From Nemertoderma westbladi (lineage: Eukaryota > Animalia > Xenacoelomorpha): a DNA stretch of 64,000 nt. Below are positions 25,795 through 63,611 of this stretch, piece after piece. A model generated the notes under the pieces. It was not told the origin of the DNA. It saw only the letters and a list, made by a program, of their open reading frames with translations, and did not search any database. The stretch is from contig JAUCBJ010005043.1 in assembly GCA_032718475.1 (NCBI GenBank), positions 62,001 through 126,000 of the forward strand, given 5' to 3'. A program made the position numbers and the translations under genes. Each line of letters starts with the position of its first letter. Positions within the stretch are counted from its first letter, which is position 1.

Positions 25795-25833
<39 letters not shown>

Positions 25834-30715: not shown

Positions 30716-33700
30716 ATGGCTGACACAAAGCAAACTCTATCAGATAGTCTCCTAGAAAGAACAGTCTGCGACTCCGACAGGAGTGCCGAACATTTGAGAC
30801 CAAAGTCCAAGTCCCCTCCTACTGTAAGAAAGGTCATCCCTCCAGTAGTAGTATCAGATCCTAGGCTAGTAAAGCACCGTAGGTCTATCATACGCACTTG
30901 GGCTCAAGTCAAGCGGGACAAAGAGGCACCTGTTAAACAGCAGCAACACCCGAACCGAGAACTTATTTCTCAGCGGCTCGATAGCTCCAGTAGTTCAGAT
31001 ACTGTAGAGTTACCCGAGATCGGAGCAAAGATGGCAGAAGCGGTTTATTCAGATCCACTTCTAATTCTTCCTGAAGCCGTACTCACTAGAGTATTGATTG
31101 CGGTGGAGGAACATCAAATCGATTGGGCAAGAAGTAAGCGATCGACCATGGACAGTTATGCGGGATACATGAAGGAGGAACTGAAGTCTATTGTCGAGAC
31201 GCAATAGAACTTCCCCGGACCCGGACTCCCGTTTAACTTATCGGAAGCTGCCTGGGAGGACTTATACAGGATGGGAGTGGTAAAGGACACTAGAGATCCA
31301 GCTGTGTGGAAGAGGTCGGCAGCAGGATATGTACAGGGATTCTTCAGCTCTTTGGAGCGATTAGAGGAACAACTGTTTCAACAACCCCAAGGACCTCAAG
31401 AGCAGGGAGAGCTGCTTTATCAAGTTCGAGAACGAATCCTAAGAATCAGACTAATCCTTTCAGCCTTTGAGGAAGCCTCGAAGAGAAGCCAAGACACGTC
31501 GTTGCAAGTCGCCGTAAAGACTTGGTTCCAACGGGTGAGTCTTAAAGTCAAAGGAACAACCTAATGGAAAATTCAGCTAACTGAGCGCGCGATCCACGGA
31601 GAATCAACAGACGCTACCTTTTCTCAGGTGGAATGCAACGTTACATCAGAGAAACCTCAGAAGAAGGACGCTATTGACATCTATCTGTCGGACTATCAAC
31701 GATTTATAAGTGACAAAGAGTTGAGGAGACGGCTAGCTGGACTTCACCCTACTAGTGAGGGAGCCAAGTTTGTGTTGGACTCATTAGATACGGAAATGTT
31801 AGCCGCGGACCAGGCTAAATTTGATGAAAGCATCCGCATCGCTAGGGTCCAAGAAGAACAGTTAAAGAAAAAACGTATAGAAGACCGAAAGGCAGCAGCA
31901 GCGGCAGCGGCAGAAGTTGAAAGAAAAGCGGCAGCGGCAGCGGCATAAGCGGAAAGAAAGGAGGCAGAAGCTGAAGGAAAAGCTGCAGTGGCAGAGGCTG
32001 AAGGAAAAGCTGCAGTGGCAGAGGCAGAAAGAAAAGCGGCAGTGGCAGAGGCAGAAAGAAAAGCGGCAGCGGCAGAAGCAGAAAGAAAAGCGGCAGCGGC
32101 AGAAGCGGAAAGAAAAGCGGCAGAGGCAGAAAGAAAAGCGGCAGCGGCAGAAGCGGAAAGAAAAGCGGCAGAGGCAGTGGTAGAAGCAGAACGGAAAGCA
32201 TCTGAAGAGACAACCCAACTAGAGTTGGAAAATCTTCAAGAGAAGCCAGACTACTTCAATAAACAGAGAACAGCTAGTCAGTGGCAGATGATAAGTCGAT
32301 CTACTCCCAAGAGACAGGGATTTACATCATCTGATGAAGGCGATACAACAGATCCTGAAGGCGGAGGAAATAGATCTCGTTCCAGCAGATGTAGAAGAAC
32401 GCCCCACTGTCAGAAATTGCCTAATTTGCCCCCAGCTGTGAGAAGGCAACTAGCTAGTGCAGACTTAGGTAGTACAGAACACACAGACCAAATTATTAGA
32501 GTAGAAAGACTCCCTACTATAGTAGATGAGCCTGAAATAATTAGGCCTGTTCTCGAAGCCACCCCCTCTGTGATGGAGACCCCTGTACTTCCAGAACCTA
32601 ACTCAAAATTCCCTTTGCACAGTACTAAACTACCTGTGCCCAGTAGGACAGTTCCTGAGTCAATTCCGGTCCTGGACGCCGAGCGAGACATTAACGATTT
32701 ATCGCCCGTCGTCCCTCGTCTACCCGCTACTATGTTGGCGGCTCCCGCTTTGGCGGTAGAGTGGGTGGATGAGCGACGGCGGGGGATGGATCTCCTGCTC
32801 GGGCAGATGGAGGAACATCGGGAACGTTCCTCCTAACAGGTCCGGGAGTTGGAGGGGACTGTTCAACAGTTAAAGGGAACAGTAAGAGAAGGTAGGTTAG
32901 AGTTGCAAGAAGTGCAGCAGAGTATCGCTTTAGAACTCGATAAATTGGTAAATCTACAAAGGGGTATACCACCACCCCCTGTAACAATGTGTCAACCTGT
33001 TAGGTCTGAAGTATTTCATGCGCAAGGTGTGGAGCCTACACGCATCTATACTGCTAGTGAAGTAGAAACTCCTATAGTAAACCCTATCAAGGATAATTAT
33101 AAACCTGTTGATAATGATATTCCATATAGACCTGATCATAATCCGAGAAATTTATATACCGATAACTCGATATTAAATAATACGATGGCCCAAGAAAGTT
33201 TTATGCGTCAAATGGCTAGAACCGAAGCCCGTCAAGCGGTAAAGGTGGGAGAGATCATCAAGTTCAATGGAGATGAGATGAAATGGTTACCTTTTAATGA
33301 ATATTATAAAGATAACATACAGAACTCTGTACTATCTAATGGAGAGAAACTTAGATTCCTCATCGAGTGCTTGGAAGGACCCCCCAAGTTAATGGCGTTA
33401 AAGTTTATTGGACATCCAGATGGATTGCGACAAGTTTGGGATACACTAAACATCAGGTATGGTAATAGGACAAACATAGCTAGGTATTTGTATGCGAAAT
33501 TAGTAGCGCCCCGAAAGTTCCTTAGCAGCGGGATTATAGAGTTTTCCGATGAGATTCAGGAGATTTGTAGACAGTTAGATTGGTTAGATAAGTCTCATGA
33601 ATATCAGAGTTCCATGGTTATTGGAGCCGTAGCATCTACTTTGCCAAAGGGTGGAGTAGGTACTCGTTGGGACAAAAGAGTTCTCTATATGATGGACCAG

Positions 33701-36606
33701 CAACAAAGAGACCCTACCATGGCTGATCTCATGTCATTCTTAAATGGAGAGGTAAGATTACAGCTCCTAAAACAGTCCCGAGAGAAGACACCGGAAAATA
33801 AGGTAATTGAAAAACCCATTTCTAGGAGAAAGGTCACCCCAGTATGTTATACAGATGACGGCGAAAGCCAAACCTCTCAAGAGGAGAACAGCGGGAAAGA
33901 CACTGAAAGATTTTACTATGTCAACAAAGCACCTAAAAACGTAAGTAAATTTAAGTCTCGAATCAGTGACAGGAGAGAACAGGTAACAAAAACTCCTCCT
34001 ACGTCTCCTAAGAGAATTCATGGAAGAAAGCCCGAGGAAAGAACGAGTGTGCACAACACTACCCAAGGTAAAGTAAGTAACATCAAACCAAAATGTGCAT
34101 TGTGCGTCGGGCCCCATCGTTTAAGTATGTGTGATGAATTCTTAAAGAAATCCTTAAAGGATAGACGCGATGTCATGTGGGATAAGCGGTTGTGTTATAA
34201 TTGTCTCAGACAAGGACACCAACGGCGAACCTGTTACTCCGACACGAGGTGTGCTAAGTGCTAAGCTAACATCATATCTTGCTGCACACTGAATTTGAAA
34301 GAACCAGCCCGAGTCAGGTAAGCGAGTCCGAACTACATGTCCAGTTCAGTGATGTGAACGACACTGACCACAGTTCTGAGATGGAAGGATTTTACACGGA
34401 CGAATTCTCCGACGAAAATGAATCCTGTTATATGATAAACACCGCGGTGTATCGAGCACTTACGTATGAGACTGAAACCGATAAAGAAGCGCACCCGACT
34501 ATTCCTGACCGACAACCATCTTGGAAAGCGCCAACTTCCAATGTTGGAATCCGGGAATTCCCTGTAGTTCAGCTGAGAGTCCATGGATCAGGTAAGAGTT
34601 TTATAGTCAACGCCGTCCTGGACTCTGGCAGCACAGGAACATTCATCGACAAAGAACTAGCCAAAGACATCTTTGCTGGACAACCCAAGTTCCGAACTAA
34701 GTTGAACCTTTCAGGAATTATGCAGGTTTGGAAATCTACAGTAGCTACAGACTACTATGTAGGCGCGTTGTCCACCCCTCAGGACGAACTAGGAGAACAT
34801 AGCATAAGGTCAGTAAAAATGGTGGCGATAAAGAACTTTGCTACCAGTCAAGTAGAACCTTACAACTGGGATGAAGACGATTTTACCCAGCAACATAATA
34901 TCCCTAGATTCAACACCGACTACCCAGGGGTGCAAATATTGATCGGCCAAAATGCGCATGAGGCGCTTGAGACATTAGAGAAACGGCCTGCTCGACCGCA
35001 ACCATTGCAAACCTATGCGGGAAGAACTAGAGTAGGTTGGTACTTCACTGGACCTTCCCATAGAACACTCATGGAAAGATTACCTGCCGAACAAATACAT
35101 CAGGTGAGTGAATGGGAAGAAGAAATCAGTGAGGGAGAGATCACACCTGAGGGAACACCATACTCCTCAGATAACGACGATATTACCCAATTATTTGACG
35201 AGGAAAATACAATCGACCTCCTCACTGAAAGTGAAGCTTGGAGAAACCAAGTGCACCTGTGCCATCTCATCAATCATGACGGACAATTAGACTACAATGA
35301 CAAGCTAAATGAGGTGATAGATCGACACAATGCTAAGATTCACGATGAACACGCCGTATGATTCTTTACTCAAGAAGCTGTAGAGCCTAATTCCTACGAC
35401 AAAGCACTATCGGTCGAGGAGGAAAGAGCCAAGCAGATCCAGGAAACAACTACATGTTTTCTTAAAGATCAAGGTAGGTATGAGATTGGTCTGCCATTCC
35501 GACGGCAAGAACCCAACTTTATAAATAACCGACCCTTGGCGGAGAAGAGAATCGCGCAACTACATCGGCGCCTTACGGCAAATGCTTCAGCTAAAGAGAT
35601 GTATAAGACCCAGCAGAAGAAATTCATCGATAAGGGATACGCGGAGCGAGTACCGGAAGAAACACCCATAACTGAGAGAACGTATTATCTAACACATCAT
35701 TACGTTCCCAAACCCGGTAAACCCAACAAAGTCTGGGTAGTATTTGACGGCTCCGCCCTTTACATGGGCCAATCCCTTAACTCTGAGTTGTTGCCGGGAC
35801 CCAACTTACTCCAATCCTTGTTGGGAATACTCTTAAGATTACGGCAATATTCGATCGCCTTCGCCTCGGATATAGAAGGCATGTTCTTACAAGTTAAGGC
35901 GCTGGATAGGGATCGAGACAGCCTACGATTTCTGTGGTGGTCTGAAGGAGACCTCAACCAAAAACCGGTGGAGTACTGGATGACCATCCAGGCTTTCGGG
36001 ATCATCTCGAGCCCCCGAACGCTTGTTCAGTAGTGCGCACCACTGCTGATGACAACCGAGACGCCTTCTCTAAAGCGGTTATTGACAACATCAAACGGGA
36101 TATATATATGAACGACAATTTAAAGTCCCTCCCATCGGTGGAAGAAGCCATTGATGTTGCCAAGGGAACGGTAGAGTGCTTGAAACGCGGTGGATTTCGA
36201 CTAACTAAATTCACAAGTAACTCCCGTGAGTTTCTGGAATCGATTATCCCGTCGTTTCGCTGACCATTTCGAAAAACATTATCTGCCTACGCTACAACTT
36301 CGAACCAAGTGGTTTGCGCAGCAAGAAAACGTCAGCGCCGGAGACATGGTCCTTATTGTGGAATCAGATCTTCCACATAAGCGGTGGCAAACAGGTCGTA
36401 TCATCGAGACTCATATCTCCGATGATGGTTTAGTGCGATCAGTAGAACTCGTCGTCATGCGAGGTAACTTTAAGAAACCTGGAATTGCAACTCAATCGCC
36501 CAGTTGGTCGTTTATGTTTACTGGAAAGAGACAGAGAACTATCCGGAAACTATGGAAGGCAAGATACTCTTCCCACGACCACCTCCCTAATCCAACAAAC
36601 ATCTAG
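30716..36606 (+). pseudogene. BEL/Pao gag-pol pseudogene (long N-terminal extension, gag, 3 zinc knuckles, aspartic protease, RT, integrase C-terminus; RNase H and integrase core deleted)
   Basis: ORFs 30716, 31271, 31628, 31988 and 32849 share one frame, separated by single stops. Motifs: FNGDEMKWLPF (DUF1759-like gag); CALCVGPHRLSMC / CYNCLRQGHQRRTC / CAKC..HHILLH; AVLDSGS protease; GRYEIGLPF; VVFDGSA..SLN..LLPGPNL; DIEGMFLQV; YMND (degenerate YxDD); HYLPTLQLRTKW..GDMVLI..DGLVRSV (IN C-terminus). Frameshifts near 34270 and 36015; deletion junction near 36250. Confidence 0.93.
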
Positions 36607-37934
36607 GGACTCCCCAACGTAACAGCGTCTGGAGTGGGTGTGTGACTATGTTATTTTATATTTGTTTTTATTATTTTTATATTTATGTATATATTATTAT
36701 GTAATTTTATTATAATCGTTTTCTTTAATTTTATTTAGTAGAATGTTATTTTAGCGATTATTTAGTAGGATTAGTGCCATATATATTCGTGTTAATTACT
36801 TAATTACTTATATTATATATTTAGTGTAACGGCGAGAAATAATTATTTTCTCTTTCCTTACTGTCCGTATCATATTATAAATGCGTGACTACAGTAAGAT
36901 GAAATATCCGTACTTATTAAAGTACAATAAAGCTCGTACTATACTCAAGTATTATTGGTGAGTAGAGTATTAGGAATGCAAAGTTCAGATCCTCGTGTCT
37001 CGGCTAAACCAAGCTCTAGGTAGACCTTGGAAACGACTTGCCTCTTCTCACTGACATTGCTTCTTGCAATATTGCTCTCATACCGTATATTAAATAATAC
37101 ATATAGTAGCGTGATGTCCCTTTAACAGTAGCGTACAACACAAAATAAATCTGTTAAACCCTTTGACCATCTGTAATTCTAGTCGATTAAGATATCATGG
37201 CACCCACCGATATACTTGAAAGACAAAACTCTAGAATCAGTGGTTAACGTCCCCAGACAATTCCCAGACGGAGATTCACCCTAAGTATATTAGTGTGAGA
37301 GAATCTCCAATATATAGTCAATAGCCGATAAAATTCATAAAATCATGTATAAGGGGGAATATTGACAATTAAAGAATTACTATTAAATAGCATCCCAGAT
37401 CTGTATGCATGAGAATTACCCTAATTCTACTGCTAGCTTTCCATAATTTCACCATAGCAACAACCACGCTAGAATTAGAAGCGAGTTAAAAGAACAATAG
37501 AAAGCTTGCCTCATTGAATAGCATACGGAATAAATAGCGCACTGCTAGTATCCAAGGATACATAATAATAACGTGGCATTCTGGAAGGCACTTGACTAAC
37601 GGACAAATGGCGTGAATGTGTACAATTTGTGACAGTTGTGTAGAATTTGTGCGTTTATAGGTGAATGTTGCTACTAAAGTGTGTTTACAGTAGCTAGTCG
37701 CAGTTGTGAAAGTAGCCCAACCTCTGCAGTAAGAACCTGAAGTAAATCTAAGCCCTTGGGACGGACAGTGGAGTGACTCGCGCTGGTTATTGTTGTCGTT
37801 GTGTAGCTACTACGCTGGCGATAGGCACCGCGACAACAGTACATCGGCGCTGAGGATCTTGCGCTGTCCGGGGGCAGTGAGGGGTAGGCAGCGACGCCCG
37901 CTAGCCTAATTATAACTAATTACAATATTGATAA

Positions 37935-40900
37935 ACTCATATAGCAGCTATTACTGAGTTGATAGAAGATAATCTTGGTATCAGGGAGCGATATACCCTA
38001 CCGTTGCAAGCGTTTGTTGATAGCCTAATACGCGGCGACGCTAGTCCCACTACTACGGAGGACGATGGCCGTTATATCGAACTGCCAATGCCCAAGGAAC
38101 AACTCACGCGTGAATTGGACTATAGAAAATTCACCGCTCGCTACACGCATCGTAATGGTACGTATATGGACTTCTTAACCACTGGCCATCCTATCGATTT
38201 ACACGATACGGACGATGTAGACACTGAAAGGGAAATGGTTCTATTTAAATATCATACCCAGCGGAGTTGGAACGATAACCCGAGAATCGAACATGAGAAT
38301 TCTATTCGAAACCGACTCGAAAGAGAAGACGTTGAAGAGCCGGATAAACGCAGCGACTTCAACGAATATCTGGAATTCTTGAGAGAAACATATCTCAATA
38401 TTGCCAGCCAACAAAATCTAGAAACTCGATATCCTCAAGGTATACATCACGACCCTATGATAGAACTCAAACGGCTCTTTTTCACTATGATGTATCTTAC
38501 CGCCGATCGACCGCTACCTGTCGTCCCGGATAGCTTCGAACAGATGGAGGAATATTGTAAAACTGGAGAACGATCACCCGCGTTTCCCCTACAAGACGTG
38601 CGTCTTTGATATTATTGCGATGAATGCCCTAGACCCAACCAGCAAACGGAAAGACATAAACATCCGCGGAGACGTTGCGCTAAACACAGTTTTACTCGCT
38701 ATACTTACGGGAGTTTCGAGCGAAACTTGTTCGACGTATCACCTACGCTCGCTCGACTCAAACGATCCTTAAATAAACCCATGATCAGAGTTCCGGAATA
38801 CTCGGTCAGACCTCCTCACTCCCTAGTGAGACCTCAAACTCTTGATCCTAATAGTATAACGGATCCTCCTGAACTGTACTCACTGTTCAAAGATCTTGTG
38901 TTACCCGAACAATTAATCGGTGGCACTCCGGTAGTGGGCTCGCTAGATATTCACCCCTCCTACCTAGCCGGATTGGGACGCGGACATCTAATATTGCCGT
39001 TGAACCCGTACAATCGTCCCGGTTTAACCCCGATACAACCCGTCACCGAAGTCGAGGAGAGCGTTGTACGAAACGCGTTAGACGCTATTCGGCAGAAGAT
39101 CGGAAAAGGAACTTATGATTGTTTAGAGAAACGCAAATTGCAGCAACAAGTCCAAGCGGTGAAGGAGTTGGCCTTACCCCAGTTCGATCGAGAAATCCAG
39201 AACCTCGAGGAAGACATCGAACTTGGACGAACCTATTCTCTACAAGAGTTCTTAGACGAACGCTTACAACGACAAGCGGAGGAAAATCAGCTCGAGGAGA
39301 AACACATCGAAATGGATGAGAGAGAAGAAGCAGCATTAGCCCAACCAGAAGCTCAAATCCTTATGACTGATCTCTACTCCAAAACCATCATTCATCCCTC
39401 GATGGTTCCCCATTTCGGAGACAAACTCTTCGCAACGGTACAACCCCAACCAGTTGATATCAACCTAAGATCTCGAGATCTTATCGCTGACGCTCCTATG
39501 TTACAGCATCCGCCAATCGAGGCCGCTCGTGTCGACGGTATACTCGTTGATCCTCCGGACAATCGAGCGGATCTTGTCCGTCGTATGGTATATGAGGTCA
39601 ACATACGCGCTAGACCTTTACCGAACTCGTTTTATGGGATCAAGATCACCCTTATTATGTTAATCTAACTCAATATTATATGGTAAAACCGGAAGATCCT
39701 ACACATAGTCTAGGGTTTCTACCACTAATAAATCCTCTCGATCTTGTCGAACTCGAACAACTGCAGAAACATCTGGATCAGTTAGTGAAAGTAAACTCAT
39801 TCAGAAAACCCTACAATGTTTCCAGAATAGAGAAAGATATACTGCCTCCGTATAATCTCGATGGATTTATCAAAACTCGATTAGTCCACTGGAATCTCGA
39901 CGTATTATTTGAGGAAGAGAGAATACAACGATATGGAGATGTAGAGACGTATACTACACAATATCTAAAGTATAGGGATCTACCCAACGCTAGCGAATGC
40001 GCCACCTTAAGGCATCCGGTAGGGATGACCCTAGAAAACGCCACTAAAGAGTGGAATGAAACTCTTAACATTATCGAAATGTATGGAGTTGTCACTTACG
40101 ATAACGAAGGTAGCGTTCCGGTTGGAGAACTGGGAACTACGTGCATGATACATATACGTGGACTAGCTGGTTCTACCCACGTGTTTACTCGAGCGTGTTC
40201 CGACGTGATTGATTATTCTTTTGAGACCCTCACCAAGATACAAAAGAAACTCCGTCATGGACAATTCGAACTCGCGCAGCGTTACGTCACCGACACCGAG
40301 TGCAAACCGGCCATGGGTATCGATGGATCGATGTTACCCCAGCCCGTGCTCGAGATGTTGTTTAACGAAAGAATCCTTAAAATCGGCTCAGCTGTTTATG
40401 GAGATCTCCAAAACGACTTGAGGAACATGGAGAATATCCCATATCCTTTCGTGGATACTCAGCTGATTGCTCCCTGCCCAGAAGGCCGAGGTTTCTTCCG
40501 AACTATGTATGCCAATACACCCAGCGGCATCAATAAAGTACAACGAACCTCCATCGGACATCTTGCCTTTCAAGAATACGGATGGAATTTCAAAGTCGGT
40601 AACCCTATCAACTATCAACAAGTATATGGAGATCATTATTCTCGATTATACTTCGACGGACCATTGACCGCATCTGGCGTCGTGTATAGCTTCATGAGTG
40701 TTCCACTTCGTCCCTCATTAGCTATATACACTATCTTCGAGAACGCTGCACTTGCCGGTTGGCTAGCCGATGTGTGCAGTCGTACTATACGCGCCCATCC
40801 CTTAATACTTGGAACCAAACTCGCCAAGCTAGATGAACACAATAAATTCATCCGCTTCGAATGCTTTAGGCGCTTTCTGACTCCGTTCCGTAACGTTGAT

Positions 40901-42190
40901 AGTCAGTTCAAGGACCGTGCTCTGACCAAGCTCAGCCTAAGAGACTCAGCTGCTGAGAAGTTAGACAGCGCTGGATTCGCCATTTTCAAGGACGTTTGTA
41001 TACAGAACTTACATTCCTCTGTTATACAAAGACCTCGAATCCCCACGGGTTATTCTATCGTGGAAGTTCAGACAGTGGGTTCGCTTGAGGAGACAGCCAC
41101 ACCTACCTCAGCTATGCAATTGGAAGACGAACCAATATGCTTAGAATCCGAGGAGATTCAGCCCACAGCGCCCCGGAGCAGTGACAACGACTACGTCCTG
41201 GAATGGTATCAGGGTCCACAATGTCTCACCGTGTACGATTATCGGCATGCCAATTATGTCTCTAGGAAACGTTGCCGATTATGTGCATCTTGAGACCATT
41301 TCACCCCTGTGGACTCCAACGTACCATGCTCCTACTTCCATAAACAGCCTACGATGGAGATCTATTGTGTGTATTGTAGACTCAATAACTTGCACATTTT
41401 CGCAGTCTGCCCCCAATTTATGACTCAATGCCATCATTGTCAGTTTAAAGGACATGCAAGTTTTGATTGCCCTTTCAACAGCGATCTGGAAAGCGTAGAT
41501 GAAATGATTACCCTACGCTACATTCGAGCCTGGGAAGCGAACGCGGATTTACATTATGAGTCACGTCATCGCTATTACCCTGGACGTGCCTACGAAGGAG
41601 TTTATGTGTTCCACCCGTTCCACCCACAAAAATCTCGCACACCGAGTTACGAACTAATGAAGCGTGTTGGCGAGAATATTTCGACCAAATTTGTTCGTAA
41701 ATATCTCAGGAACATTAATCCCAACGATCTTAATTCCTATAACTTGATAAACTTCATTCGTCAAAATCCGGAATATGGTGACTTGTTCATCAACTCGCAT
41801 CCAGAACTACAGGAAGTTCATAGACGACCCTATGAATATAGAGCCCGAGAACGCGAGTTAGAAAGAACCATCAAACCGAGGAAATTTCTCACTACTCACG
41901 GTCCACCTACCGCTCTCGTGCAGACGACTCGTCAGGGACCAGTAAGAGCTGCTGTCCTGAAACGCGCTCTGAAGGTTGTTCGACCTCGTTCCACTGAGGT
42001 TGATATCGATCAACCGGGTACCTCGACCGGCGGATACACCGACCGTAATCCTAAACCTTCCGATGCAATTGTATTGCACCCCTCACCTAGGAGTTATAGC
42101 CCTCCTAGTAAAGTGGCTCGCCCCAAAGAGAAAAGGACTCTTGCTAGCCTCAAAAAACTGTGTAAATGCCGTTCACGTAAGAAAGACTAA
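37935..42190 (+). pseudogene. Accessory ORF2 of the BEL element: ~1,400-aa protein with N-terminal Cys/His cluster, coiled coil, DEDDy-type 3'-5' exonuclease and three C-terminal CCHC knuckles
   Basis: ORFs 37959 and 38727 are one frame (TGA at 38607). A frameshift near 39625 leads into 39680 and 41309, which are one frame (TGA at 41291). Exonuclease motifs: VVTYDNEG, LPQPVLEMLFNERILKIGSAVYGD, FVDTQ, SIGHLA..YG, PLRPSLAIYTIFE. Knuckles: CRLC..*DH...C, CVYCRLNNLHIFAVC, CHHCQFKGHASFDC. Confidence 0.8.
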
Positions 42191-42268
42191 CTGTTTAGAG
42201 TATTTTTATATTTTAGAAACTGTGATTTTTTATATTTTATAGAATTAAATCCCATTTTCTGGGAGCGG

Positions 42269-43436
42269 TGTAAAAGCTTTTGCGGATATAACAAGTCATT
42301 TTTCTCCGCAATGACTGTGTAGTTGTTTTAGCGGACATAACAAGCCATTTTTTCCGCCATGTACCTTGTAGGTGTTTTAGCGGACATAACAAGCCATTTT
42401 CTGCCGCAATACGCCTAATACTCTAAAAGACTGGAACTCCGATGACGAAATCTGTCAGCTGATTTACTGTACACATGGAGCCTCTCTTTGTTCAGGCTCG
42501 GCCAATCAGAGCGATTTTCATTTTATCTTGTACAGAGGCCTACGGAAAACCGCGCAATGCATTACGGTTTTTGTTTACCTTTTCTGAGCCTCAGAACATC
42601 GGCTTTGGAATTATTCTGTTTTTCGGTAGAAGTTTCAGACTTTGACCAACATTAGACGGCTTTGATTATAAGAACGTAAATCTATTATCTGACTGCACTG
42701 TGCAACAAACCTGAACAAACTGATGAAACTGCACTCACTCAATCCTATTCACCGCATTATTTTACTTCTGTTTACTGTCTGTTATTAATTGTTATATGTT
42801 GATGGATATGTTGTTATATTTGGAGAATACCAATAAATAATCATAAAACCCCAATCTTCTTGATTACTGAAGGTAAGAGGGACCGGTTACCGGTAGCAAT
42901 TGCGACTTACATTATAGTGGTTTTAGTGTGAATTAAATGCTATTTCATAATCCCTACATGTGTTAGTTGCTATCCTCCTTATATATGGTCAAATTCAGTG
43001 ACGGTCGACAGATCAGTGCGCAGCAGTGTGAAGTCGTATGCAGCAGTGTGACAGATAATAAAGCATCTCCTAAAGAATGCGCTATTTACGAAAATCAGTA
43101 GCCATCTCGTTGTGTTTAGTATAAGTCATAACTCTGTTTTATACTTAAAGCACCACGTCCTAAAGGAACTGTTAATATTTCCCCGAAAGTGAATAATATT
43201 GTCAGAGATTATATAGTAACGATCAATCGAATAATACAGTAGGTCTGCAACGCAATAACTTCAAAGCACCCGAATCCAGTCTCCCTTAACTGTGGGTGAA
43301 TGATCGCGCATAGACTGGCTTCGGATAATGTTACTTCATGTGCATTAAATAATTGTTATAGGCTAAAGTCGATTTATAAACAAGAGGACACCTAAAATTG
43401 GCAGGTTAAACTGCTAAAGGTCTGAAAGCGCGAACA
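42269..43436 (+). repeat. 3' LTR (1168 bp)
   Basis: Direct repeat of 27610-28804, followed by the AACTC TSD. Confidence 0.95.
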
Positions 43437-44559: not shown

Positions 44560-45084
44560 GGTACTATGTACCCTCTTAGTCTTACTCCCTAACTCTAACT
44601 TTACTAATGGTACTACGTACCCTCTTACTCTGTAACTCTAACCCCACTAACGGTACCACGTACCCTCTTACTCTCTTACTCTAACCCCACTAACGGTACT
44701 ACGTACCCTCTTACTCTCTAACTCTAACCCCACTAACGGTACTACGTACCCTCTTACTAACTAACTCTAACCCCACTAACGGTACTACGTACCCCCTTAC
44801 TCTCTATCTCTAACCCCACTAACGGTACTACGTACCCTCTTACTCTCTAACTCTAACCCCACTAACGGTACTACGTACCCTCTTACTCTCTAACTCTAAC
44901 CCCACTAATGGTACTACGTACCCTCTTACTCTCTATCTCTAACCCCACTAACGGTACTACGTACCCTCTTACTCTCTAACTCTAACTCCACTAACGGTAC
45001 TACGTACCCTCTTACTCTAACCCCACTAACGGTACTACGTACCCTCTTACTCTTTATCTCTAACTCCACTAACGGTACTACGTA
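44560..45084. repeat. ~43-bp tandem repeat (CTAACCCCACTAACGGTACTACGTACCCTCTTACTCTCTAACT)
   Basis: About a dozen direct units, read from sequence. Confidence 0.9.
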
Positions 45085-45109
45085 CAGTAGGTACGTAGTA
45101 CCATTAATG

Positions 45110-48750: not shown

Positions 48751-49280
48751 CATGACTTTACATCGCGCTAATAATAGCACCGGGCCGCGACGCCGTGGAT
48801 TACTTTACAATTCGCTTTCAGGTAAGTTCACGCTGTCGCCATGAATACGCGGTGTGACCGATAGCACCATTTAAACGAAATATAAGAAACGCAAATAATT
48901 ACGATTATTGACTTTAGGATTTAGATATTAGGTGCAATATAAGTAAATGGTACAAATAAATCAATATATTTCAAGGTAAAGATTAGCAAATTTCAGGAAC
49001 ATCAGTTGCCTTTGTTTCACCTTTCCTATCCAATTATTTGTTGGTCCAATCTATTCCTGGCAGTCGGTTATGAAGAGGATAAAAATTGCAACTTTGAGGA
49101 ATCAGGATAATATTCGCGTCCATTTTGCGGTTATTTATATACAAGCCTAATGAAGGAGAAATACTTACGCCATGTCAGTGGCAAAAACATGATACCAACC
49201 ATTATTACTGTAATTAAGTAGGACTATAATTAAATACTTAATAAAAAATAGTTGAAATTGTATATAGAAAATTGTTTTTG

Positions 49281-50808
49281 GAGCACTCGGGAAGGGCCAT
49301 AGTGTTGGTGGAGCACTCGGGAAGGGCCTTGGTGTTGGTGGAGCACTCGGGAAGGGCCTTAGTGTTGCTGGAGCACTCGGGAAGGGCCTTAGTGTTGGTG
49401 GAGCACTCGGGAAGGGCCTTAGTGTTGGTGGAGCACTCGGGAAGGGCCTTAGTGTTGGTGGAGCACTCGGGAAGGGCCTAGTGTTGGTGGAGCACTCGGG
49501 AAGGGCCTTAGTGTTGGTGGAGCACTCGGGAAGGGCCTTAGTGTTGGTGGAGCACTCGGGAAGGGCCTTAGTGTTGGTGGAGCACTCGGGAAGGGCCTTA
49601 GTGTTGGTGGAGCACTCGGGAAGGGCCTTAGTGTTGGTGGAGCACTCGGGAAGGGCCTTAGTGTTGGCGGAGCACTCGGGAAGGGCCTTAGTGTTGGTGG
49701 AGCACTCGGGAAGGGCCTTAGTGTTGGTGGAGCACTCGGGAAGGGCCTTAGTGTTGACGGAGCACTCGGTAAGGTTCTTAGTGTTGGTGGAGCACTAGGG
49801 AAGGAACTTAGTGTTGATGGAGCACTCGGGAAGGGCCTTAGTGTTGGTGGATCACTCGGGAGGGCTTTCGTGTTGGTGGAGCACTCAGGAAGGGCCTTAG
49901 TGTTGGTGGAGCACTCGGGAAGGGCCTTAGTGTTGGTGGAGCACTCGGGAAGGCCTTAGTGAGGTGGAGCACTCGGGAAGGGCCTTAGTGTTGGTGGAGC
50001 ACTCGGGAAGGGCCTTAGTGTTGGTGGAGCACTCGGGAAGGGCCTTAGTGTTGGTGGAGCACTCGGGAAGGGCCTTAGTGTTGGTGGAGCACTCGGGAAG
50101 GCCTTAGTGAGGTGGAGCACTCGGGAAGGGCCTTAGTGTTGGTGGAGCACTCGGGAAGGGCCTTAGTGTTGGTGGAGCACTCGGGAAGGGCCTAGTGTTG
50201 GTGGAGCACTCGGGAAGGGCCTTAGTGTTGGTGGAGCACTCGGGAAGGGCCTTAGTGTTGGTGGAGCACTCGGGAAGGGCCTTAGTGTTGGTGGAGCACT
50301 CGGGAAGGGCCTTAGTGTTGGTGGAGCACTCGGGAAGGGCCTTAGTGTTGGTGGAGCACTCGGGAAGGGCCTTAGTGTTGGCGGAGCACTCGGGAAGGGC
50401 CTTAGTGTTGGTGGAGCACTCGGGAAGGGCCTTAGTGTTGGTGGAGCACTCGGGAAGGGCCTTAGTGTTGACGGAGCACTCGGTAAGGTTCTTAGTGTTG
50501 GTGGAGCACTAGGGAAGGAACTTAGTGTTGATGGAGCACTCGGGAAGGGCCTTAGTGTTGGTGGATCACTCGGGAGGGCTTTCGTGTTGGTGGAGCACTC
50601 AGGAAGGGCCTTAGTGTTGGTGGAGCACTCGGGAAGGGCCTTAGTGTTGGTGGAGCACTCGGGAAGGCCTTAGTGAGGTGGAGCACTCGGGAAGGGCCTT
50701 AGTGTTGGTGGAGCACTCGGGAAGGGCCTTAGTGTTGGTGGAGCACTCGGGAAGGGCCTTAGTGTTGGTGGAGCACTCGGGAAGGGCCTTAGTGTTGGTG
50801 GAGCACTC
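49281..50808. repeat. 30-bp satellite (GAGCACTCGGGAAGGGCCTTAGTGTTGGTG) with a 714-bp higher-order duplication
   Basis: Tandem units; an identical variant pattern appears at 49481 and 50195. Confidence 0.96.
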
Positions 50809-53286: not shown

Positions 53287-53948
53287 CTACAGAGCCCCGT
53301 CGTCTCCATCCTGCAGCCCCGAACTCGAGGCCTCGGACCGGAGTATACTGAGGTAGCCGGGGGGCCGCGCCGCCCACATACCGGCGGGGGGTCCCGAGTT
53401 CAGCAGTTCGCCGCTGCTGGGGGCGTCCGAGCCCACAACGGACACCGGGTCCCCCCGCAGGAGGTCCCGCTCGTGTAGACCCCGCAGGTAGGACAGACTG
53501 AAGGCCGCGTTGGCCGCGGTGTAGTCGGGCGCGGCTCCGCTCCCATTGGACGTCGCCATTGGCGACGATACGGAGTTGATCAGGGACAACGCCGGTAGGA
53601 AACCCGATGAGTCTAGATGGCAGGAGGTGGAGGTGGGTTGGTCGGGGTGGGAAACGGGTTGGATGAGGGGCAGTAGACCCGACGAGTTAGTCTGCTCCAA
53701 CGACCCCCCGGTCCGCTTACTAAGCCCCCTACCGGTCAGCTGGAGTTTCTGGTTCAGTACGCTGGACGCTAGGTGGGGAAGCGAAGGCAGTTGGTAGCTC
53801 AGCAACGACGGGAAACCCTCGTTGCTAAGCTGCATGAGGGACGCGAGACCGTTGGGGACACCGGCTGCACCAGGAGCGCCAACCTCGTCGCGCAACCGCT
53901 GTCGGATTCTCTCGAGATATTGCTGCGACGGTAAAGGCGGTTCCCAAT
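53287..53948 (-). CDS. ATG9: ATG9 probable last coding exon (disordered C-terminal tail)
   Basis: TTTACAG acceptor in phase 1 gives (N)WEPPLPSQQYLERIRQRLRDE, matching the NPxWxPP motif of ATG9A. The frame is open and GC-rich to the stop at 53287. Confidence 0.8.
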
Positions 53949-56027: not shown

Positions 56028-57879
56028 CTTTATTTTCTAGAGTTTGCCCGAAACAAGAAGTGTATACTAACTTTGACTCAACGTGTAAGGTGATCTACAC
56101 TTACAATGCGGAAAAGCAATATGATTTCTGAAAGAAGAAAGGTGGCCTGGTCTTTCAACTATATGAACGACATAAGTTAGGCATCTGATGGGTTTGGGTG
56201 CACGTTTAAAACTGCATGTCGAAAAAATCGATAATATTAGTATAATACTAGACTGTAAAGATACAGTTGTTGCTGTAATCTTCAAACAAGTTTATGCGGA
56301 TACATTTTACTCTTGAAGTAAAGCCTATGTATTAGCCTTTCAGGTACATCACTGCTTATCTATATTACTTTTGTCTGGTAAATAATACAAGCCTTCAAAT
56401 TGTTACATATATTATTTTGAGATAAAAATGTAGAGTTTGGATTGTAACTTTCAAGTTCTGCCAAAAAATTGCCAACGCCGTCTTTATATTGTAATGATGC
56501 AAGTCACATAATCATTTACTTTGTCTTCCAGAAAAATAAGTCTTTACCAATTTGTGGTTATTCAAATTAGTTCTATGAGATAAAATGTGAGTGTTTGACA
56601 TAAGCAATGTAGAGTTTGGATTTGGTAGAGTTTGGAAAAAGGCAAATTATAGATCCAAACTCAATCTTCATGTCCAAACTCAACATGGTGCAGTTAAGCA
56701 GTTCGAAACTCTACTATCTTAATTGCCAAACTCTACAAATTATCACTGTTGTAAGCAGTGTGATATTGAGAGGGAAGTTTAAATTTGAAACTGAATTCTA
56801 AAACATTAATCATTATTTTTAATAATTGATTCTGACTGCTGAAACATTCTATAGTTTGTATGTAGCAGGGGTCAGTAATTTATAATCTATTTAAACAAAA
56901 TTATAAATTATTAATAGTTACTGTTGAATAGAGCAGGTTTGTCTATCGACCAGTTCAGACTGAAGTAGTTTATGTTTTAAAGAGTTGCAGTTTGGCTTAC
57001 TGCCAGATATTAAGATACCGGTAGATTACTTACAGGCTGGTTGTTGTACCTAACTATAATAAGTGATGGATGGCGCGCACATAGAGGAAAGAAAAAGACA
57101 AATTAGCGGCACGCAATAAAGATCTTAACATTATCAAGAAATCCAAACCAAAACGAAGTGTTTCTACGAAGGAAAACGAAAAGAAAACTAAAAGTAAACT
57201 TAACTTTAGTGGTCCGCCGAATTCCCCGACGCCGCAAGTCTGCGAGAAGAAAATTAGAAGAGTTAGAAGAGGATTGAGAATTATGAGAAGGAAAGGTTTT
57301 GCCATAAGAGGCAAACCCGTGAAAAGCAGTTCAAATCCAAAACTGTACTTCCAACTCTTACTACACCGAGAGAACCACGAAGTCGACAAACTTATAAACT
57401 ACTTGGAACCGATCAGCGAAAACAATATACAGAAGGGATAATCCTCGTGTTTACAATCGTGAAAAGGAGGCTCATCGCAAAAGGCAGCAGACAATACGAA
57501 ATATGAGCAGAAGATTACAGCTTGCGCGGATCCTAACTTCGCCCTTCAACAGAGACAGAAAAGAAATAGCGAACAAAAACGGTGCGTGAAAAGAAAATTA
57601 GTTTAATTTAATTTAAAACATTAGGGGAAATAAGCTGAGCAGGTTATAGCGGCGGTGTTTTCTAACCAAAACAATAATCAAACCCGGGAAGATCACCCAT
57701 CCATGATGGCATTCCCCGGCTTAATGAGTCTTGAGGATTCTCGGAATTTATCAACTTTGATGTGATTAATTATAACAATAAATGATGATATTATCCAATC
57801 AGAACACAAGGAATTCACGAGTTTGGAATTATTTACTGGCTTCTCGACCGGAAGAAAGACCAAACTCGACACAAAATTG

Positions 57880-58054
57880 TAGAGTTTGGAAAAGGAATCC
57901 AAACACTATACACCAGGAAAAGTAGAGTTTGGAAAAGGAATCCAAACACTACACCAGGAAAAGTAGAGTTTGGAAAAGGAATCCAAACACTACACCAGGA
58001 AAAGTAGAGTTTGGAAAAGGAATCCAAACACTACACCAGGAAAAGTAGAGTTTG
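57880..58054. repeat. 41-bp tandem repeat x~4 (TAGAGTTTGGAAAAGGAATCCAAACACTACACCAGGAAAAG)
   Basis: Direct units visible; the TAGAGTTTGG motif also occurs near 56430, 56609 and 56626. Confidence 0.85.
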
Positions 58055-58582
58055 ACTGCAATTTTCCGTTTTCTCCCCATAATTTCTTAGCTTTTGAATA
58101 TCTTTATGTTTTATTGTCAGATTCTCAATCAGTGGAAAAAATGCAATCGAATGATATATACTTTTACCACTTAAAAAAAAAAATTTTGACAACTACGTTT
58201 CGTTATTTTTTTTCACTTTCTGTGGCCGAGACCTTCAACTATTAGTTGACTTTACCATTCGGTAGAACATAAGCAGCGGCCGACTGCAGTGGTTTACACT
58301 AATTAATTTAGGACGATCTTGAATACGGGGGAAAATATTCAAATTCAAATATTCAAATTGATATAAATAAATAAAATAAGAATTAAAATCAGCTGACAAA
58401 GTGCTGCAGCCCTATAAACTCAACCATCCCCCAATATGCTCGCTTTCACTCTAGGAGATAGTGACACCGGAATCAATTAATTTTAATTAAAAATTCCGAA
58501 GTTTTTCGATTAAAAATTGTGGTTTCCGGAAGGTTTCGAATTTTGTGGAAGCCTGACCAGGACTATAATTAAACTAACTTAC

Positions 58583-58739
58583 TTGGGTTGGTTACAGTAA
58601 AGTGCATCAAACTCATCTCCGTTTTACCGTTTTCGGCCTGACACTCAGCCGGGCTCTCTGGTTCTGACATCCAACTCGTGTTACCATGACGACGTACGTC
58701 TAACTGAGCGAAGGAACATACGTCACCGACGCCGTTTAC
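58583..58739 (-). CDS. ATG9: ATG9 exon
   Basis: VNGVGDVCSFAQLDVRRHGNTSW...AENGKTEMSLMHFTVTNP; CAG acceptor and GTAAGT donor; phase 0 to phase 1. Confidence 0.95.
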
Positions 58740-59067
58740 CTGTGGATGAAACAATAAGACGGTATAATAAAACATGGATAGTCTGAGAGACACGGAAAGC
58801 CGTCAACCCAATCCATCTGTTATAAAACGGGAGGATTAAATAAAATGGTTGGATAGTTACAGCGTGTTCAACCCTGGAGATAGAATGGAGTCATTCCTGC
58901 TAATATGATCTACCAAAGTTGGGAGCCTTCGGGTTGCCTCTGGTGTCTCACATTCCATTCACATTAGTCCAAACAATAATTAATACTATATCTATATAGA
59001 AATAAAGAAACAGAAAGAACCCAAAAATCACTTGTTACTAGACAGGAGCCAACCCAGCACAACTTAC

Positions 59068-59310
59068 CTCAACCGTAAAATTACGGAAAAAGTCCACAAT
59101 ATCTTGGCATTTTGGCCTAAGACGATAGTAAATGATGAATGGAGTGAAGATAGGACTGAGAAGTTCCTCCAAGTAAAAGGTAGCTTTGTATTGGAACAGC
59201 TGACTGAACTCCGACCGGACCTTGTCGGTGTGGGCACGTCCGGTCCAGGAATCGTCCGCGTAATGGATGTGAGACTTTATCGCTTGTAGAATACCTTCCG
59301 GACACCACAC
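59068..59310 (-). CDS. ATG9: ATG9 exon
   Basis: VWCPEGILQAIKSHIHY...EFSQLFQYKATFYLEELLSPIFTPFII...IVDFFRNFTVE, a hallmark ATG9 segment; CAG acceptor and GTAAGT donor; 243 nt. Confidence 0.96.
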
Positions 59311-59873
59311 CTGAGGATGGACAATAAAACAGACAAGAAAAACGAGCGTTCTAGATAGAGATTTAGGGAAATAATAGAGGGAAAATTCATATCTACAAGC
59401 TTGCCAGCGAGAGCTGGCAATATCGACGGATCCATTGTTGTCGACAGAATTTTGATTGAGTGAATTCTACGATTAGGATCGGTCATTCTAGAATTAATTT
59501 CACTGTTGCTAGGCAACCAACAGGTCACTCGCAACCAAAACCCTGCATACACAACTAGGTCCGAAAATGAACCTATCCCCAAAGTTTCATTCAATTCCAT
59601 CAACATTAAATGCAAGAAGTTGTGTGTACAAACAAACACACAAACAAATAAACACGTGTGAGAAATAAGGACATCCACTTCTTGGATCCGTCCAATACTA
59701 GATACAAAACAACTGAACTGGACGATTTAAGCCATGTCGTAAATCGTCTCTATCTGTTTTACCAAAACCCCTAGTGTTGACAACCTCACACAGTCGCCGC
59801 TATTACAACCTCAGTTTATATCGCGTCGCTAGGCAACCAATCTAAGTTTATATCACATCGCTAGGCAACCAAC

Positions 59874-60010
59874 CTGATTCTCATCAGGTATAAATACCCG
59901 ACACGCGGTGACGATGAGACCCAATGACGTCATCGCTGTAAGGACGTGTTCCACCGTTAGTACATCCTCGTCAATAACAGTTAGACAGAGTAGAACAGCC
60001 AACATTGCAC
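59874..60010 (-). CDS. ATG9: ATG9 exon (transmembrane hairpin)
   Basis: (G)AMLAVLLCLTVIDEDVLTVEHVLTAMTSLGLIVTACRVFIPDENQ matches the DEDVLxVEHVL motif of ATG9A. TAG acceptor and GTTGGT donor; phase 1 to phase 0. Not in the ORF track. Confidence 0.92.
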
Positions 60011-62130
60011 CTAACGGTAGAAAAGTAGACAGAGTAGAACAGCCAACTTTGCACCTATAGGTAGAAAAGTAGACAGAGTAGAACAGCTAACATTGCACCT
60101 AGCGGTAGAAAAGTAGACAGAGTAGAACAGCTAACATTGTACCTATCGGTAGAAAAGTAGAAATAGTAGAACAGCTAACATTGCACCTAGCGGTAGAAAA
60201 GTAGACAGAGTAGAACAGCCAACTTTGCACCTATAGGTAGAAAAGTAGACAGAGTAGAACAGCTAACATTGCACCTAGCGGTAGAAAAGTAGACAGAGTA
60301 GAACATCTAACATTGCACCTATAGGTAGAAAAGTAGACAGAGTAGAACAGCTAACATTGCACCTATAGGTAGAAAAGTAGACAGAGTAGAACAGCTAACA
60401 TTGCACCTATCGGTAGAAAAGTAGACATAGTAGAACAGCTAACATTGCACCTATAGGTAGAAAAGTAGACAGAGTAGAACAGCCAACTTTGCACCTATAG
60501 GTAGAAAAGTAGACAGAGTAGAACAGCTAACATTGCACCTAGCGGTAGAAAAGTAGACAGAGTAGAACATCTAACATTGCACCTATAGGTAGAAAAGTAG
60601 ACAGAGTAGAACAGCTAACATTGTACCTATAGGTAGAAAAGTAGACAGAGTAGAACAGCCAACATTGCACCTATCGGTAGAAAAGTAGACCGAGTAGAAC
60701 AGCTAACATTGCACCTAGCGGTGAAAAGTAGACAGAGTAGAACAGCTAACATTGCACCTATAGGTAGAAAAGTAGACAGAGTAGAACAGCTAACATTGCA
60801 CCTATCGGTAGAAAAGTAGACAGAGTAGAACAGCTAACATTGCACCTAGCGGTAGAAAAGTAGACAGAGTAGAACAGCTAACATTGCACCTAGCGGTAGA
60901 AAAGTAGACAGAGTAGAACAGCTAACATTGCACCTATAGGTAGAAAAGTAGACAGAGTAGAACAGCCAACATTGCACCTATCGGTAGAAAAGTAGACAGA
61001 GTAGAACAGCTAACATTGCACCTAGCGGTAGAAAAGTAGAAAAAGTAGAACAGCTAACATTGCACCTAGCCGTAGAACAGTAGACGAGTAGAACAGCTAA
61101 CATTGCACCTATAGGTAGAAAAGTAGACAGAGTAGAACAGCTAACATTGCACCTATAGGTAGAAAAGTAGACAGAGTAGAACAGCTAACATTGCACCTAT
61201 AGGTAGAAAAGTATACAGAGTAGAACAGCTAACATTGCACCTATCGGTAGAAAAGTAGACATAGTAGAACAGCTAACATTGCACCTATCGGTAGAAAAGT
61301 AGAAAAAGTAGAACAGCTAACATTACACCTAGCGGTAGAAAAGTAGACAGAGTAGAACAGCTAACATTGCACCTATAGGTAGAAAAGTAGACAGAGTAGA
61401 ACAGCTAACATTGCACATATCGGTAGAAAAGTAGACAGAGTAGAACAGCCAACATTGCACCTAGCGGTAGAAAAGTAGACAGAGTAGAACAGCTAACATT
61501 GCACCTATAGGTAGAAAAGTAGACATAGTAGAACAGCTAACATTACACCTATCGGTAGAAAAGTAGACCGAGTAGAACAGCTAACATTGCACCTATCGGT
61601 AGAAAAGTAGACAGAGTAGAACAGCTAACATTGCACCTAGCTGTGGAAAAATAGAAAAAGTAGAACAGCTAACATTGCACATATCGGTAGAAAAGTAGAC
61701 CGAGTAGAACAGCTAACATTGCACCTACCGGTAGAAAAGTAGAGCGAGTAGAACAGCTAACATTGCACCTAGCGGTAGAAAAGTAGACAGAGTAGAACAG
61801 CTAACATTGCACCTAGCGGTAGAAAAGTAGACCGAGTAGAACAGCTAACATTGCACCTAGCGGTAGAAAAGTAGACAGAGTAGAACAGCTAACATTGCAC
61901 CAAGCGGTAGAAAAGTAGACAGAGTAGAACAGCTAACATTGCACCTATCGGTAGAAAAGTAGGCAGAGTAGAACAGCTAACATTACACCTAGCGGTAGAA
62001 AAGTAGACAGAGTAGAAGAGCCAACAAGCACCTATCGGTAGGTAGCTAGACAATGTAGAACAGCCAATATTGGACCTAGTGGGGTAGAAAAGTTGATGTA
62101 GTTAGAAAAAGTAGAACAGCCAACATTTGA
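59982..62130 (-). repeat. 44-bp minisatellite (~47 copies) derived from the ATG9 intron/exon junction
   Basis: The minus-strand unit CTTTTCTACCGATAG|GTGCAATGTTAGCTGTTCTACTCTGTCTA equals the last 15 nt of the intron plus the first 29 nt of exon 59874-60010. Confidence 0.95.
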
Positions 62131-62247
62131 CATTTACAACAATTAAAACATTAATAAAACTTTTTGTATAGTTAACTTAACAATAATATTATATTTTTAA
62201 TATGAATATGAATTCATATAATGTAATTATACAATATACATATATAT

Positions 62248-62693
62248 TAGGGAGGGATGTTGCGAATGTCATATTTATAACACCCGCGGATGCAGATGCG
62301 GATGCAGATGTCTGAGGTAACATCCGCGGATGCGGATATCTATTAAAACATATATTTTTGCCTGGCCTCCCTTTTACATCAAAGTTATACCAGCATTTTA
62401 ATATTATATTCTAATCTTATATTAATAAACTAACAAGAGTCTAAGGTTATAGAACAGAATGGGACATAATATAACTAAACAATAATACAACAAACATTTT
62501 TTATATTGTTCCCGCCATCGAGTGTTAGTGTATACTGTATGAAAAGTAATTATTATTGAAAATGTAATTAAGTGGTTGCTGGGCCTTCTGACAGGATGCT
62601 TGAATAGTGCATGTAACATCCGCATGTCACATCCGCATGCCATGGGTGCGGATGCGGATGCGAAAAATCATGCGGACATTCGCCACATCCCTA
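62248..62693. mobile_element. hAT-like MITE
   Basis: TIR (TAGG)GAGGGATGTTGCGAATGTC against GACATTCGCCACATCCCTA; 8-bp flanks ATATATAT on both sides; subterminal GCGGAT repeats. Confidence 0.7.
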
Positions 62694-63440
62694 ATATATA
62701 TAATATAATGTAGTAATATATTTTATTCCCAAATTGTAACATTACTCAACGCCGTTAGTATTAACAGCGAGTTGTTATTTATCACTTTACAACCTTAGAG
62801 GACATTACAGCATTGTATTGACCTGTACATTATTGGGGATTACTACTTATGTAATGTCCCCACAGCGTGACAGTAAAGTCACGCCGTCATGGTTACCACA
62901 TAAACAATAGGTGGTACTTATTATTAATTGCCTGACAGCCAGATAGGCCTACTGCATTACCTACCGGTAGGCGGGGTATAGCTATTAACCAGTAGGGCCT
63001 AGCTATATTATTAAAACATGGCTCCAAATGCCACCATAAATATAAGCTAACTTATTTATAACATAATTTCTGTCATTTTAACATTTATTTATACAGCAAC
63101 TAATATAATTTGTGCGGTTTCTATCACTTATAATGTATATGTACAATCATTTCGTAATTTTACAATTTTGGAATAAAACTACATACATATACTTGTTGCA
63201 AAGTACTTTACAGTGTTCTGATCCTCGTGGCTTTATTTTCACTCACTCACTAACGTTCGTTCGTGTAACAAAGCCACTCGGATCATCACACTGTAAAGTG
63301 CTACTTTACACACAACTATGTAAATAGTTAGAAATAATATAAAGTACCGGACCTGACCGGTACAAATAATAGCGTGATATAAACATGTATATACCATTGA
63401 TATCGCGTTAGACGTCGCGTATCAAACAAATTTAACTAAC

Positions 63441-63611
63441 CTGCGATGAATTGAATATGTTTAGCGATGACGCTAATTATATTGCTGTTGAAGAGCTTGA
63501 GATACTGATTGGACAAGGTGTAGGCGGTGTTTAGCCGGGAGTCTAGTTCGTGGTCCAGCTCATTAAAGTGTCTCAAATAAATGCGGCCATATTGAGACCA
63601 TCTACGGGTGC
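63441..63611 (-). CDS. ATG9: ATG9 exon (earlier exons lie beyond the window)
   Basis: (G)TRRWSQYGRIYLRHFNELDHELDSRLNTAY...IAKHIQFIA(G), with the RHFNELxHE motif; TAG acceptor and GTTAGT donor; phase 1 to phase 1. Confidence 0.95.

What the first reader, a model, noticed from the sequence alone, without database searches (positions are those of the whole stretch)
59982..62130. ATG9 3' splice site amplified ~47 times: a decoy-acceptor array where every wrong choice hits an in-frame TAG
Seen: the 44-bp unit is the polypyrimidine tract + AG + first 29 exon nt. Splicing the phase-1 upstream exon to any upstream copy reads G-A-M-L-A-V-L-L-C-L-L-F-Y-x and then the next copy's acceptor TAG as a stop. 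Only the most distal copy (60010) continues into DEDVLTVEHV. Each junction is AG|GT, the configuration of recursive-splicing ratchet points and of the tandem-duplication model of intron gain. Inference: the cell must skip dozens of near-identical acceptors by exon definition or recursive splicing, and array length could tune ATG9 output through NMD.
Basis: partly seen in the sequence, partly recalled or inferred. Interest (0 to 1): 0.7.

Follow-up and report, generated by a model that had tools for sequence, protein, structure and literature searches.

The report
Repeated splice acceptor in ATG9 intron
An intron of an animal's autophagy gene ATG9 ends in about 48 head-to-tail copies of the next exon's splice signal, but the one transcript found splices straight to the last, genuine copy, so this is likely a harmless repeat of a kind ("mirage") already described in lancelets.

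Summary
The array is real and built as described: a 44-bp unit (29 exon nt + 15 intron nt ending in TAG) copied 48 times before an ATG9A exon (59982-62131, minus strand). 44 of 48 upstream junctions keep AG|GT; all 44 give a premature stop (38 at the next copy's TAG). Three DNA runs (two studies) show a sharp depth rise at the array edge. One run behaving as RNA holds a spliced contig joining the upstream exon directly to 60010. The stop is mostly arithmetic: two thirds of possible unit lengths at this acceptor would do the same. Copies show no coding constraint and the AG is not protected. The donor a recursive step would rebuild (GTGCAA) is weaker than all six exon donors scored in the window, and nothing points to intron gain. 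This is a 'mirage' minisatellite (amphioxus Adh3, globins, TnC, PGBD5; human parallels CBS 844ins68, F7 VNTR), here large and apparently outside lancelets. The scan noted the same kind before in other genomes. Regulation through NMD is untested and unlikely; one chance donor-like site at 61728 is the place to look.

The parts
63441..63611 (-). ATG9A exon upstream of the array (171 nt); ends in phase 1, donor GT at 63440-63439
   Evidence: human ATG9A 330-382, E 2.5e-13; Pfam ATG9; its end is the loose end of the X4 contig
60011..63440 (-). Intron, 3,430 nt; the last 2,121 nt are the array
   Evidence: skipped by the X4 contig
59982..62131 (-). Mirage minisatellite: 48 copies of exon nt 1-29 + 15-nt acceptor tail, 29 distinct unit types; the last partial copy is the real exon start
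61989..62131 (-). Three most diverged, intron-side copies (56, 44, 43 nt); carry the exon's allele at unit position 11
62101..62105 (-). Only CTRAY branch-point-like motif within the intronic part of the array, 30 nt before the first decoy acceptor (62075); homologous to exon nt 27-31
   Evidence: motif scan; function untested
61723..61728 (-). Donor-like GTAGGT made by one substitution in one unit; could close a stop-bearing pseudo-exon
   Evidence: use untested
59874..60010 (-). Real ATG9A exon (137 nt); acceptor AG at 60012-60011, donor GT at 59873-59872
   Evidence: human ATG9A 387-429, E 2.5e-12; covered by X4 contig with 0 other letters
59806..59875 (-). Small 32-bp x 2.2 duplication across the donor of the same exon; second copy has lost its GT
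59068..59310 (-). ATG9A exon (243 nt)
   Evidence: human ATG9A 432-511, E 2.1e-29; both joints in X4 contig
58583..58739 (-). ATG9A exon (157 nt)
   Evidence: tblastn; X4 contig
53287..53948 (-). Last coding exon of ATG9A to the stop
   Evidence: X4 loose end matches its start; open frame

Best explanation
This is a 'mirage' minisatellite: a 44-bp piece spanning an ATG9A intron-exon boundary is tandemly repeated 48 times, the one transcript found uses only the last acceptor, and the spare acceptors are likely a tolerated by-product of repeat turnover with no regulatory job. Shown: the anatomy, the array's presence in DNA runs, one spliced contig joining 63441 to 60010, premature stops after all 44 intact decoys, no coding constraint on the copies. 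Inferred: growth by slippage or unequal exchange (homogeneous core, diverged intron-side edge, a hint of 6-unit periodicity); choice of 60010 by exon definition, since it is the acceptor closest to the 59873 donor and the only one followed by the whole exon; removal of rare mis-spliced RNA by NMD, which would make the array cheap to carry.
For: RNA-like run X4: one 3,262-nt contig (depth 165) covers 59872-60011 without a difference, joins the next two introns at GT..AG, and continues into the upstream exon. Stops are expected: 1345 of 2016 and 412 of 616 counterfactual units (two intron tails) give a stop after all 47 wrong choices, essentially those whose length is not a multiple of 3. Of 12 distinct substitutions in the exon part of 43 units, 8 change the amino acid and 4 of 12 are at third positions (p 0.61); both AG columns have mutated (1 event each, mean 0.48 per column). 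Edge units are the most diverged, as described for amphioxus mirages (PMC3087553 passages). Precedents report normal splicing: Adh3, globins, TnC, CBS 844ins68 uses the distal site, F7 VNTR pseudo-donors stay silent (abstract). The window holds at least seven other tandem arrays away from the exons identified, so repeat expansion is common here.
Against: RNA evidence is one assembled contig from one run whose library type is not on record; contigs drop minor isoforms, so low use of decoys is not excluded. The real acceptor is no better than the decoys by pyrimidine count (13 of 17, as in most) and has no CTRAY motif within 2.1 kb, whereas decoy 62075 has one; decoys 60054, 60098 and 60142 would give exons of 181-269 nt, also definable. 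So how 60010 wins is inferred, not shown. At other acceptors of this gene the counterfactual share of all-stop arrays ranges from 0.015 to 0.685, so selection that spares only stop-protected arrays remains possible.
Confidence: 0.82

Rival explanations
1. Leaky but not adaptive: a minor share of transcripts uses decoys (62075 with its CTAAC, the last few copies, or a pseudo-exon closed by the donor-like site at 61728) and is destroyed by NMD, so long alleles slightly lower ATG9 output.
For: 44 intact acceptors as pyrimidine-rich as the real one; CTAAC before 62075; GTAGGT at 61728; all stops lie at least 137 nt before a downstream junction.
Against: The only contig found uses 60010; amphioxus mirages are reported not to give aberrant mRNA, though the passages read do not mention an NMD block.
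Confidence: 0.1
2. Regulated unproductive splicing: the array is a selected rheostat that sets ATG9 level through NMD.
For: Every intact decoy leads to a stop; the array is large.
Against: Stops expected at two in three by arithmetic; AGs decay like other columns; no conservation data; the scan's notes list the same kind in unrelated genes (unchecked).
Confidence: 0.04
3. The intron is removed stepwise by recursive splicing at the AG|GT junctions.
For: 44 of 48 junctions read AG|GT.
Against: Rebuilt donor has 5 of 9 matches to the recalled U1 consensus against 6-8 for six exon donors of the window, and 1 of 4 at +3..+6. The same bases begin the real exon, which must not be re-spliced. Ratchet points lie in long introns and need a donor stronger than the cryptic exon's (PMC8605326 passages); 44-nt steps are below the ~60-nt minimum intron quoted in PMC3265369.
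Confidence: 0.02
4. Assembly artefact or gross over-expansion of a few copies.
For: Copy number could not be measured; no listed contig spans the array.
Against: 29 distinct unit types in 48; depth 40-170 times single copy at the array edge in three DNA runs of two studies.
Confidence: 0.02

Closest known systems
'Mirage' minisatellites of amphioxus (globin BflGb6 acceptor-side, BflGb9; Adh3; troponin C; PGBD5). Ebner et al. 2010, PMC3087553 (abstract and passages read); PMC3902484 (one passage read); Canestro et al. 2002 not held, known only through these citations
   Same: Tandem copies of intron 3' end + exon 5' part; many but not all copies keep AG/GT; unit length inside the 10-72 bp range given for Adh3; homogeneous core and diverged edge; normal splicing to the authentic site; the Rogers intron-gain idea was already attached to them.
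   Different: 48 copies against 3-6 in BflGb6 (Adh3 copy numbers not seen); host appears not to be a lancelet (ATG9 58% identical to Branchiostoma over 254 aa); length polymorphism not measured here.
Human CBS 844ins68 (PMC2630376, PMC1802585: passages read; Romano et al. 2002 seen only as cited)
   Same: Duplicated intron/exon junction; the distal 3' splice site is chosen and normal mRNA made.
   Different: Two copies only; G runs between the sites promote the distal choice there, while the unit here has no G run.
Human F7 intron 7 37-bp VNTR (PMC1557585, abstract read)
   Same: Minisatellite of an exon-intron boundary with silent spare splice sites.
   Different: Donor side, not acceptor side.
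Drosophila ratchet points / recursive splicing (PMC8605326, passages read)
   Same: AG|GT juxtaposition.
   Different: Weak rebuilt donor, 3.4-kb intron, unprotected AGs, 44-nt spacing.
Rogers-type intron gain by AGGT duplication (PMC3265369, passages read)
   Same: Tandem duplication containing AGGT.
   Different: Here an existing intron's acceptor was copied; no new intron resembling flanking exon is seen.

Membership tests
Mirage minisatellite | Tandem repeat whose unit spans an intron-exon boundary of the host gene | tested here: met
   29 exon nt + 15 intron nt; exon identity
Mirage minisatellite | Many but not all units keep AG/GT signals | tested here: met
   44 of 48
Mirage minisatellite | Authentic site is used in mRNA | tested here: met
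   one contig of run X4; presence only, minor forms not excluded
Mirage minisatellite | Concerted turnover with diverged boundary units | tested here: met
   units 1-3 most diverged, core 0-3 differences from consensus in most units
Mirage minisatellite | Length polymorphism or somatic instability | tested here: inconclusive
   depth ratios differ between runs (about 170 in X1, 40-85 in X2/X3) but also between two runs of one sample
Recursive splice site (ratchet point) | AG followed directly by GT | tested here: met
Recursive splice site (ratchet point) | Rebuilt donor strong, stronger than the downstream donor | tested here: not met
   GTGCAA 1 of 4 at +3..+6 against GTTGGT 2 of 4 and others 3-4, (match count, not a trained score)
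Recursive splice site (ratchet point) | Splicing intermediates or lariats at the site | not testable with these tools
   no raw RNA reads listed
Rogers-type gained intron | Intron derived from duplicated exon sequence, absent in relatives | tested here: inconclusive
   donor and 1.3 kb upstream are not repeat-derived; no related genomic loci found
Regulated unproductive splicing (poison exon, NMD) | Alternative choice brings a premature stop well upstream of a junction | tested here: met
Regulated unproductive splicing (poison exon, NMD) | The unproductive form is made, regulated and conserved | not testable with these tools
   needs raw reads, NMD block, related genomes

The most novel reading that the evidence does not exclude
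A 48-fold acceptor array, among the longest mirages I found described, leaks in proportion to its length: decoy 62075 (the only one with a consensus branch point) or a pseudo-exon closed at 61728 diverts ATG9 pre-mRNA to NMD, so that natural length alleles act as a heritable dial on autophagy capacity.
Probability: 0.06. Interest if true: 0.6.

Novelty: new member of a known kind. Interest (0 to 1): 0.17.

Why it matters
As it stands it is one more, unusually long, example of a known repeat type, apparently outside lancelets. It is a neat natural test of 3' splice-site choice (44 near-identical acceptors, one used), and a warning for gene annotation. It would matter more only if array length were shown to change ATG9 output.

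Tried and rejected
No whole genome is held, so other mirages in this genome and paralogues could not be counted. No RNA holder was listed; X4 turned out to behave as RNA when laid. X4 has no cover in the array bin 60037-60060, and its 87.2 at 59984-60036 equals the main contig alone: absence in contigs proves nothing. The upstream exon and the intron-side edge of the array were not examined in sequencing runs, so alternative joints from 63441 and the one-base difference at 63442 remain open. Metagenome scan for ATG9 loci: 117 pattern matches, none confirmed, so the age of the intron is unknown. Two protein searches found no close relative (best 63% and 65%); the tree leaves the window's ATG9 on a long branch in no supported group (42 rows, 4 short or partial hits left out). 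Lack of a branch motif in the unit is not significant for a 44-mer (rough estimate, no call). 6-unit periodicity is only a hint (mean 2.47 differences at lag 6 and at lag 10, against 2.7-3.1 elsewhere). Canestro 2002 not held. A search for VNTR acceptor arrays by five terms gave 0 papers. No notes on this genome. Supplements of PMC3087553 (mirage alignments) were not read; copy numbers there and in Adh3 bear on the 'longest' claim.

Full report
What is there. On the minus strand, 59982-62093 is a 44-bp tandem array of 48.0 copies at 92% matches, with one older 56-nt copy reaching 62131. The flanking gene is ATG9A: exons at 63611-63441, 60010-59874 and 59310-59068 match human ATG9A residues 330-382, 387-429 and 432-511, and the join 63441 to 60010 restores the Gly codon with no gap against animal homologues. 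Each unit is exon nt 1-29 followed by a 15-nt pyrimidine-rich tail ending TAG; the consensus differs from the real exon at one synonymous base, which adds an internal AG. The array is 2,121 of the intron's 3,430 bases.

Check of the stated numbers. 44 of 48 upstream junctions have AG and all of these are followed by GT; four lack AG. All 44 lead to a TAG stop, 38 at the next copy's acceptor after 15 codons, 6 at another TAG after 19-48 codons. Only 60010 gives the open frame.

Is it real? Five runs hold part of the stretch. Laid on 58500-60060, DNA runs X1, X2 and X3 (2 samples, 2 studies; one may be the assembly's source) each have a single-copy contig ending at 60011, and summed depth rises from 20-40 to 3,460, 2,050 and 1,519 at 59984-60036. 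This is no copy count, but with 29 distinct unit types in 48 an artefact is unlikely.

Which acceptor is used? Run X4, labelled 'DNA?' with no library on record, behaves as RNA: one 3,262-nt contig of depth 165 covers three exons with 0 other letters, skips two introns at GT..AG, runs on into the last exon (loose end at 58583 equals 53948 onward) and, at 60011, runs on into the upstream exon (29 of 30 loose letters equal 63442-63471; the one difference is a synonymous base at 63442). So the main transcript joins 63441 directly to 60010. Contigs show presence only; rare use of decoys is neither seen nor excluded.

Is the stop a design? Mostly arithmetic. Rebuilding the unit with every exon length 5-60 and tail length 5-40 gives a stop after all 47 wrong choices in 1345 of 2016 cases (412 of 616 with the shorter tail), that is for any length not divisible by 3; the next TAG is the stop in a third of cases. 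For four other acceptors of the gene the share is 0.015-0.685, so a filter by selection in favour of stop-protected arrays cannot be excluded from one case. The copies show no coding constraint (8 of 12 distinct substitutions change the residue; third positions 4 of 12, p 0.61) and both AG columns have mutated (43 units of 44 nt; the old unit and four off-length units left out).

Recursive splicing and intron gain. The donor rebuilt at a junction is CAG|GTGCAA: 5 of 9 matches to the U1 consensus (recalled) and 1 of 4 at +3..+6, against 6-8 and 2-4 for six exon donors in the window, two of them from the incompletely mapped plus-strand gene. The real exon begins with the same bases and must survive. 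In Drosophila ratchet points lie in long introns, and weakening +3..+8 switches them to inclusion (PMC8605326, passages). The Rogers model makes a new intron from duplicated exon sequence (PMC3265369, passages); here the donor and 1.3 kb of the intron lie outside the repeat. Whether the intron is old could not be tested.

Likely mechanism. An acceptor-spanning duplication was amplified by slippage or unequal exchange (inferred from the homogeneous core and diverged intron-side copies). The spliceosome likely picks 60010 by exon definition: it is nearest to the 59873 donor and alone is followed by the whole exon. This step is inferred; the real acceptor is no richer in pyrimidines than the decoys, and the only CTRAY motif in the intronic array precedes decoy 62075. 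Older experiments on duplicated 3' splice sites that favoured the site next to the full exon are recalled (Kuhne 1983, Reed and Maniatis 1986) and were not read. Errors would carry a stop at least 137 nt before a junction and would likely be removed by NMD. One substitution creates a donor-like GTAGGT at 61728, the most plausible route to a stop-bearing pseudo-exon.

What is known. Ebner et al. 2010 (PMC3087553, abstract and passages) call such repeats 'mirages': tandem copies of intron 3' end and exon 5' part in amphioxus globins and Adh3 (units 10-72 bp), many but not all with AG/GT, unstable in length, not disturbing splicing, and already proposed as a route to intron gain. PMC3902484 (one passage) adds troponin C and PGBD5. 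Human parallels: CBS 844ins68 with distal 3' site choice (passages) and the F7 intron 7 VNTR (abstract). Six full-text searches were aimed at the repeat type, not at ATG9, so I make no claim that this locus is absent from print. The host appears not to be a lancelet (58% identity to Branchiostoma ATG9 over 254 aa; long unplaced branch). The scan's own notes list 11 such findings in at least 4 other genomes (unchecked, looked up after my reading was formed).

Verdict. Observation confirmed; interpretation partly supported. A new, long member of a known kind, most likely silent. Interest 0.17.

Noticed in passing
window 59806-59875 (-): The donor of the same 137-nt exon is also duplicated (32 bp x 2.2); the second copy has lost GT, the third reads AG|GTTGTA. 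Both ends of one exon carry boundary duplications.
   Followed up: partly
window 63442: The X4 transcript contig differs from the window by one synonymous base two before the donor, so in that allele the exon does not end in AG; seen in one contig only.
   Followed up: partly
window 708-983 (+): 25-bp x 11 nearly perfect array whose unit reads like acceptor, 11-nt micro-exon and donor in a row; no exon known nearby.
   Followed up: no
window about 27300-42900 (+): Broken BEL/Pao-like LTR retrotransposon (DUF1759, DUF5641, weak protease hit; similar repeats near 27619 and 42278) with extra 3' reading frames at 37935-42190 that have no Pfam match except a faint zinc knuckle; 39614-41293 has a stretch that recalls a 3'-5' exonuclease (from memory, untested).
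   Followed up: partly
window 11970-12093 and 16961-17129 (+): Cys-rich and EGF-like plus transmembrane exons of a second gene on the plus strand; gene not identified.
   Followed up: partly
window 9496-9882, 13474-16306, 22572-25797, 44580-45085, 49279-50808, 57879-58054: Further minisatellites (22, 19, 40, 43, 30, 41 bp units), 529 bases or more from any exon identified; the 19- and 30-bp arrays contain long exact higher-order duplications.
   Followed up: partly
window 25843-26268 (-): Fragment resembling the C-terminal end of a non-LTR retrotransposon next to the 40-bp array and a poly-T run; no Pfam match, likeness recalled.
   Followed up: partly
window 62250-62695 and 59395-59697: An element with imperfect terminal inverted repeats in the array's intron, and a high-copy dispersed repeat in the next intron (depth up to 25,000).
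   Followed up: no
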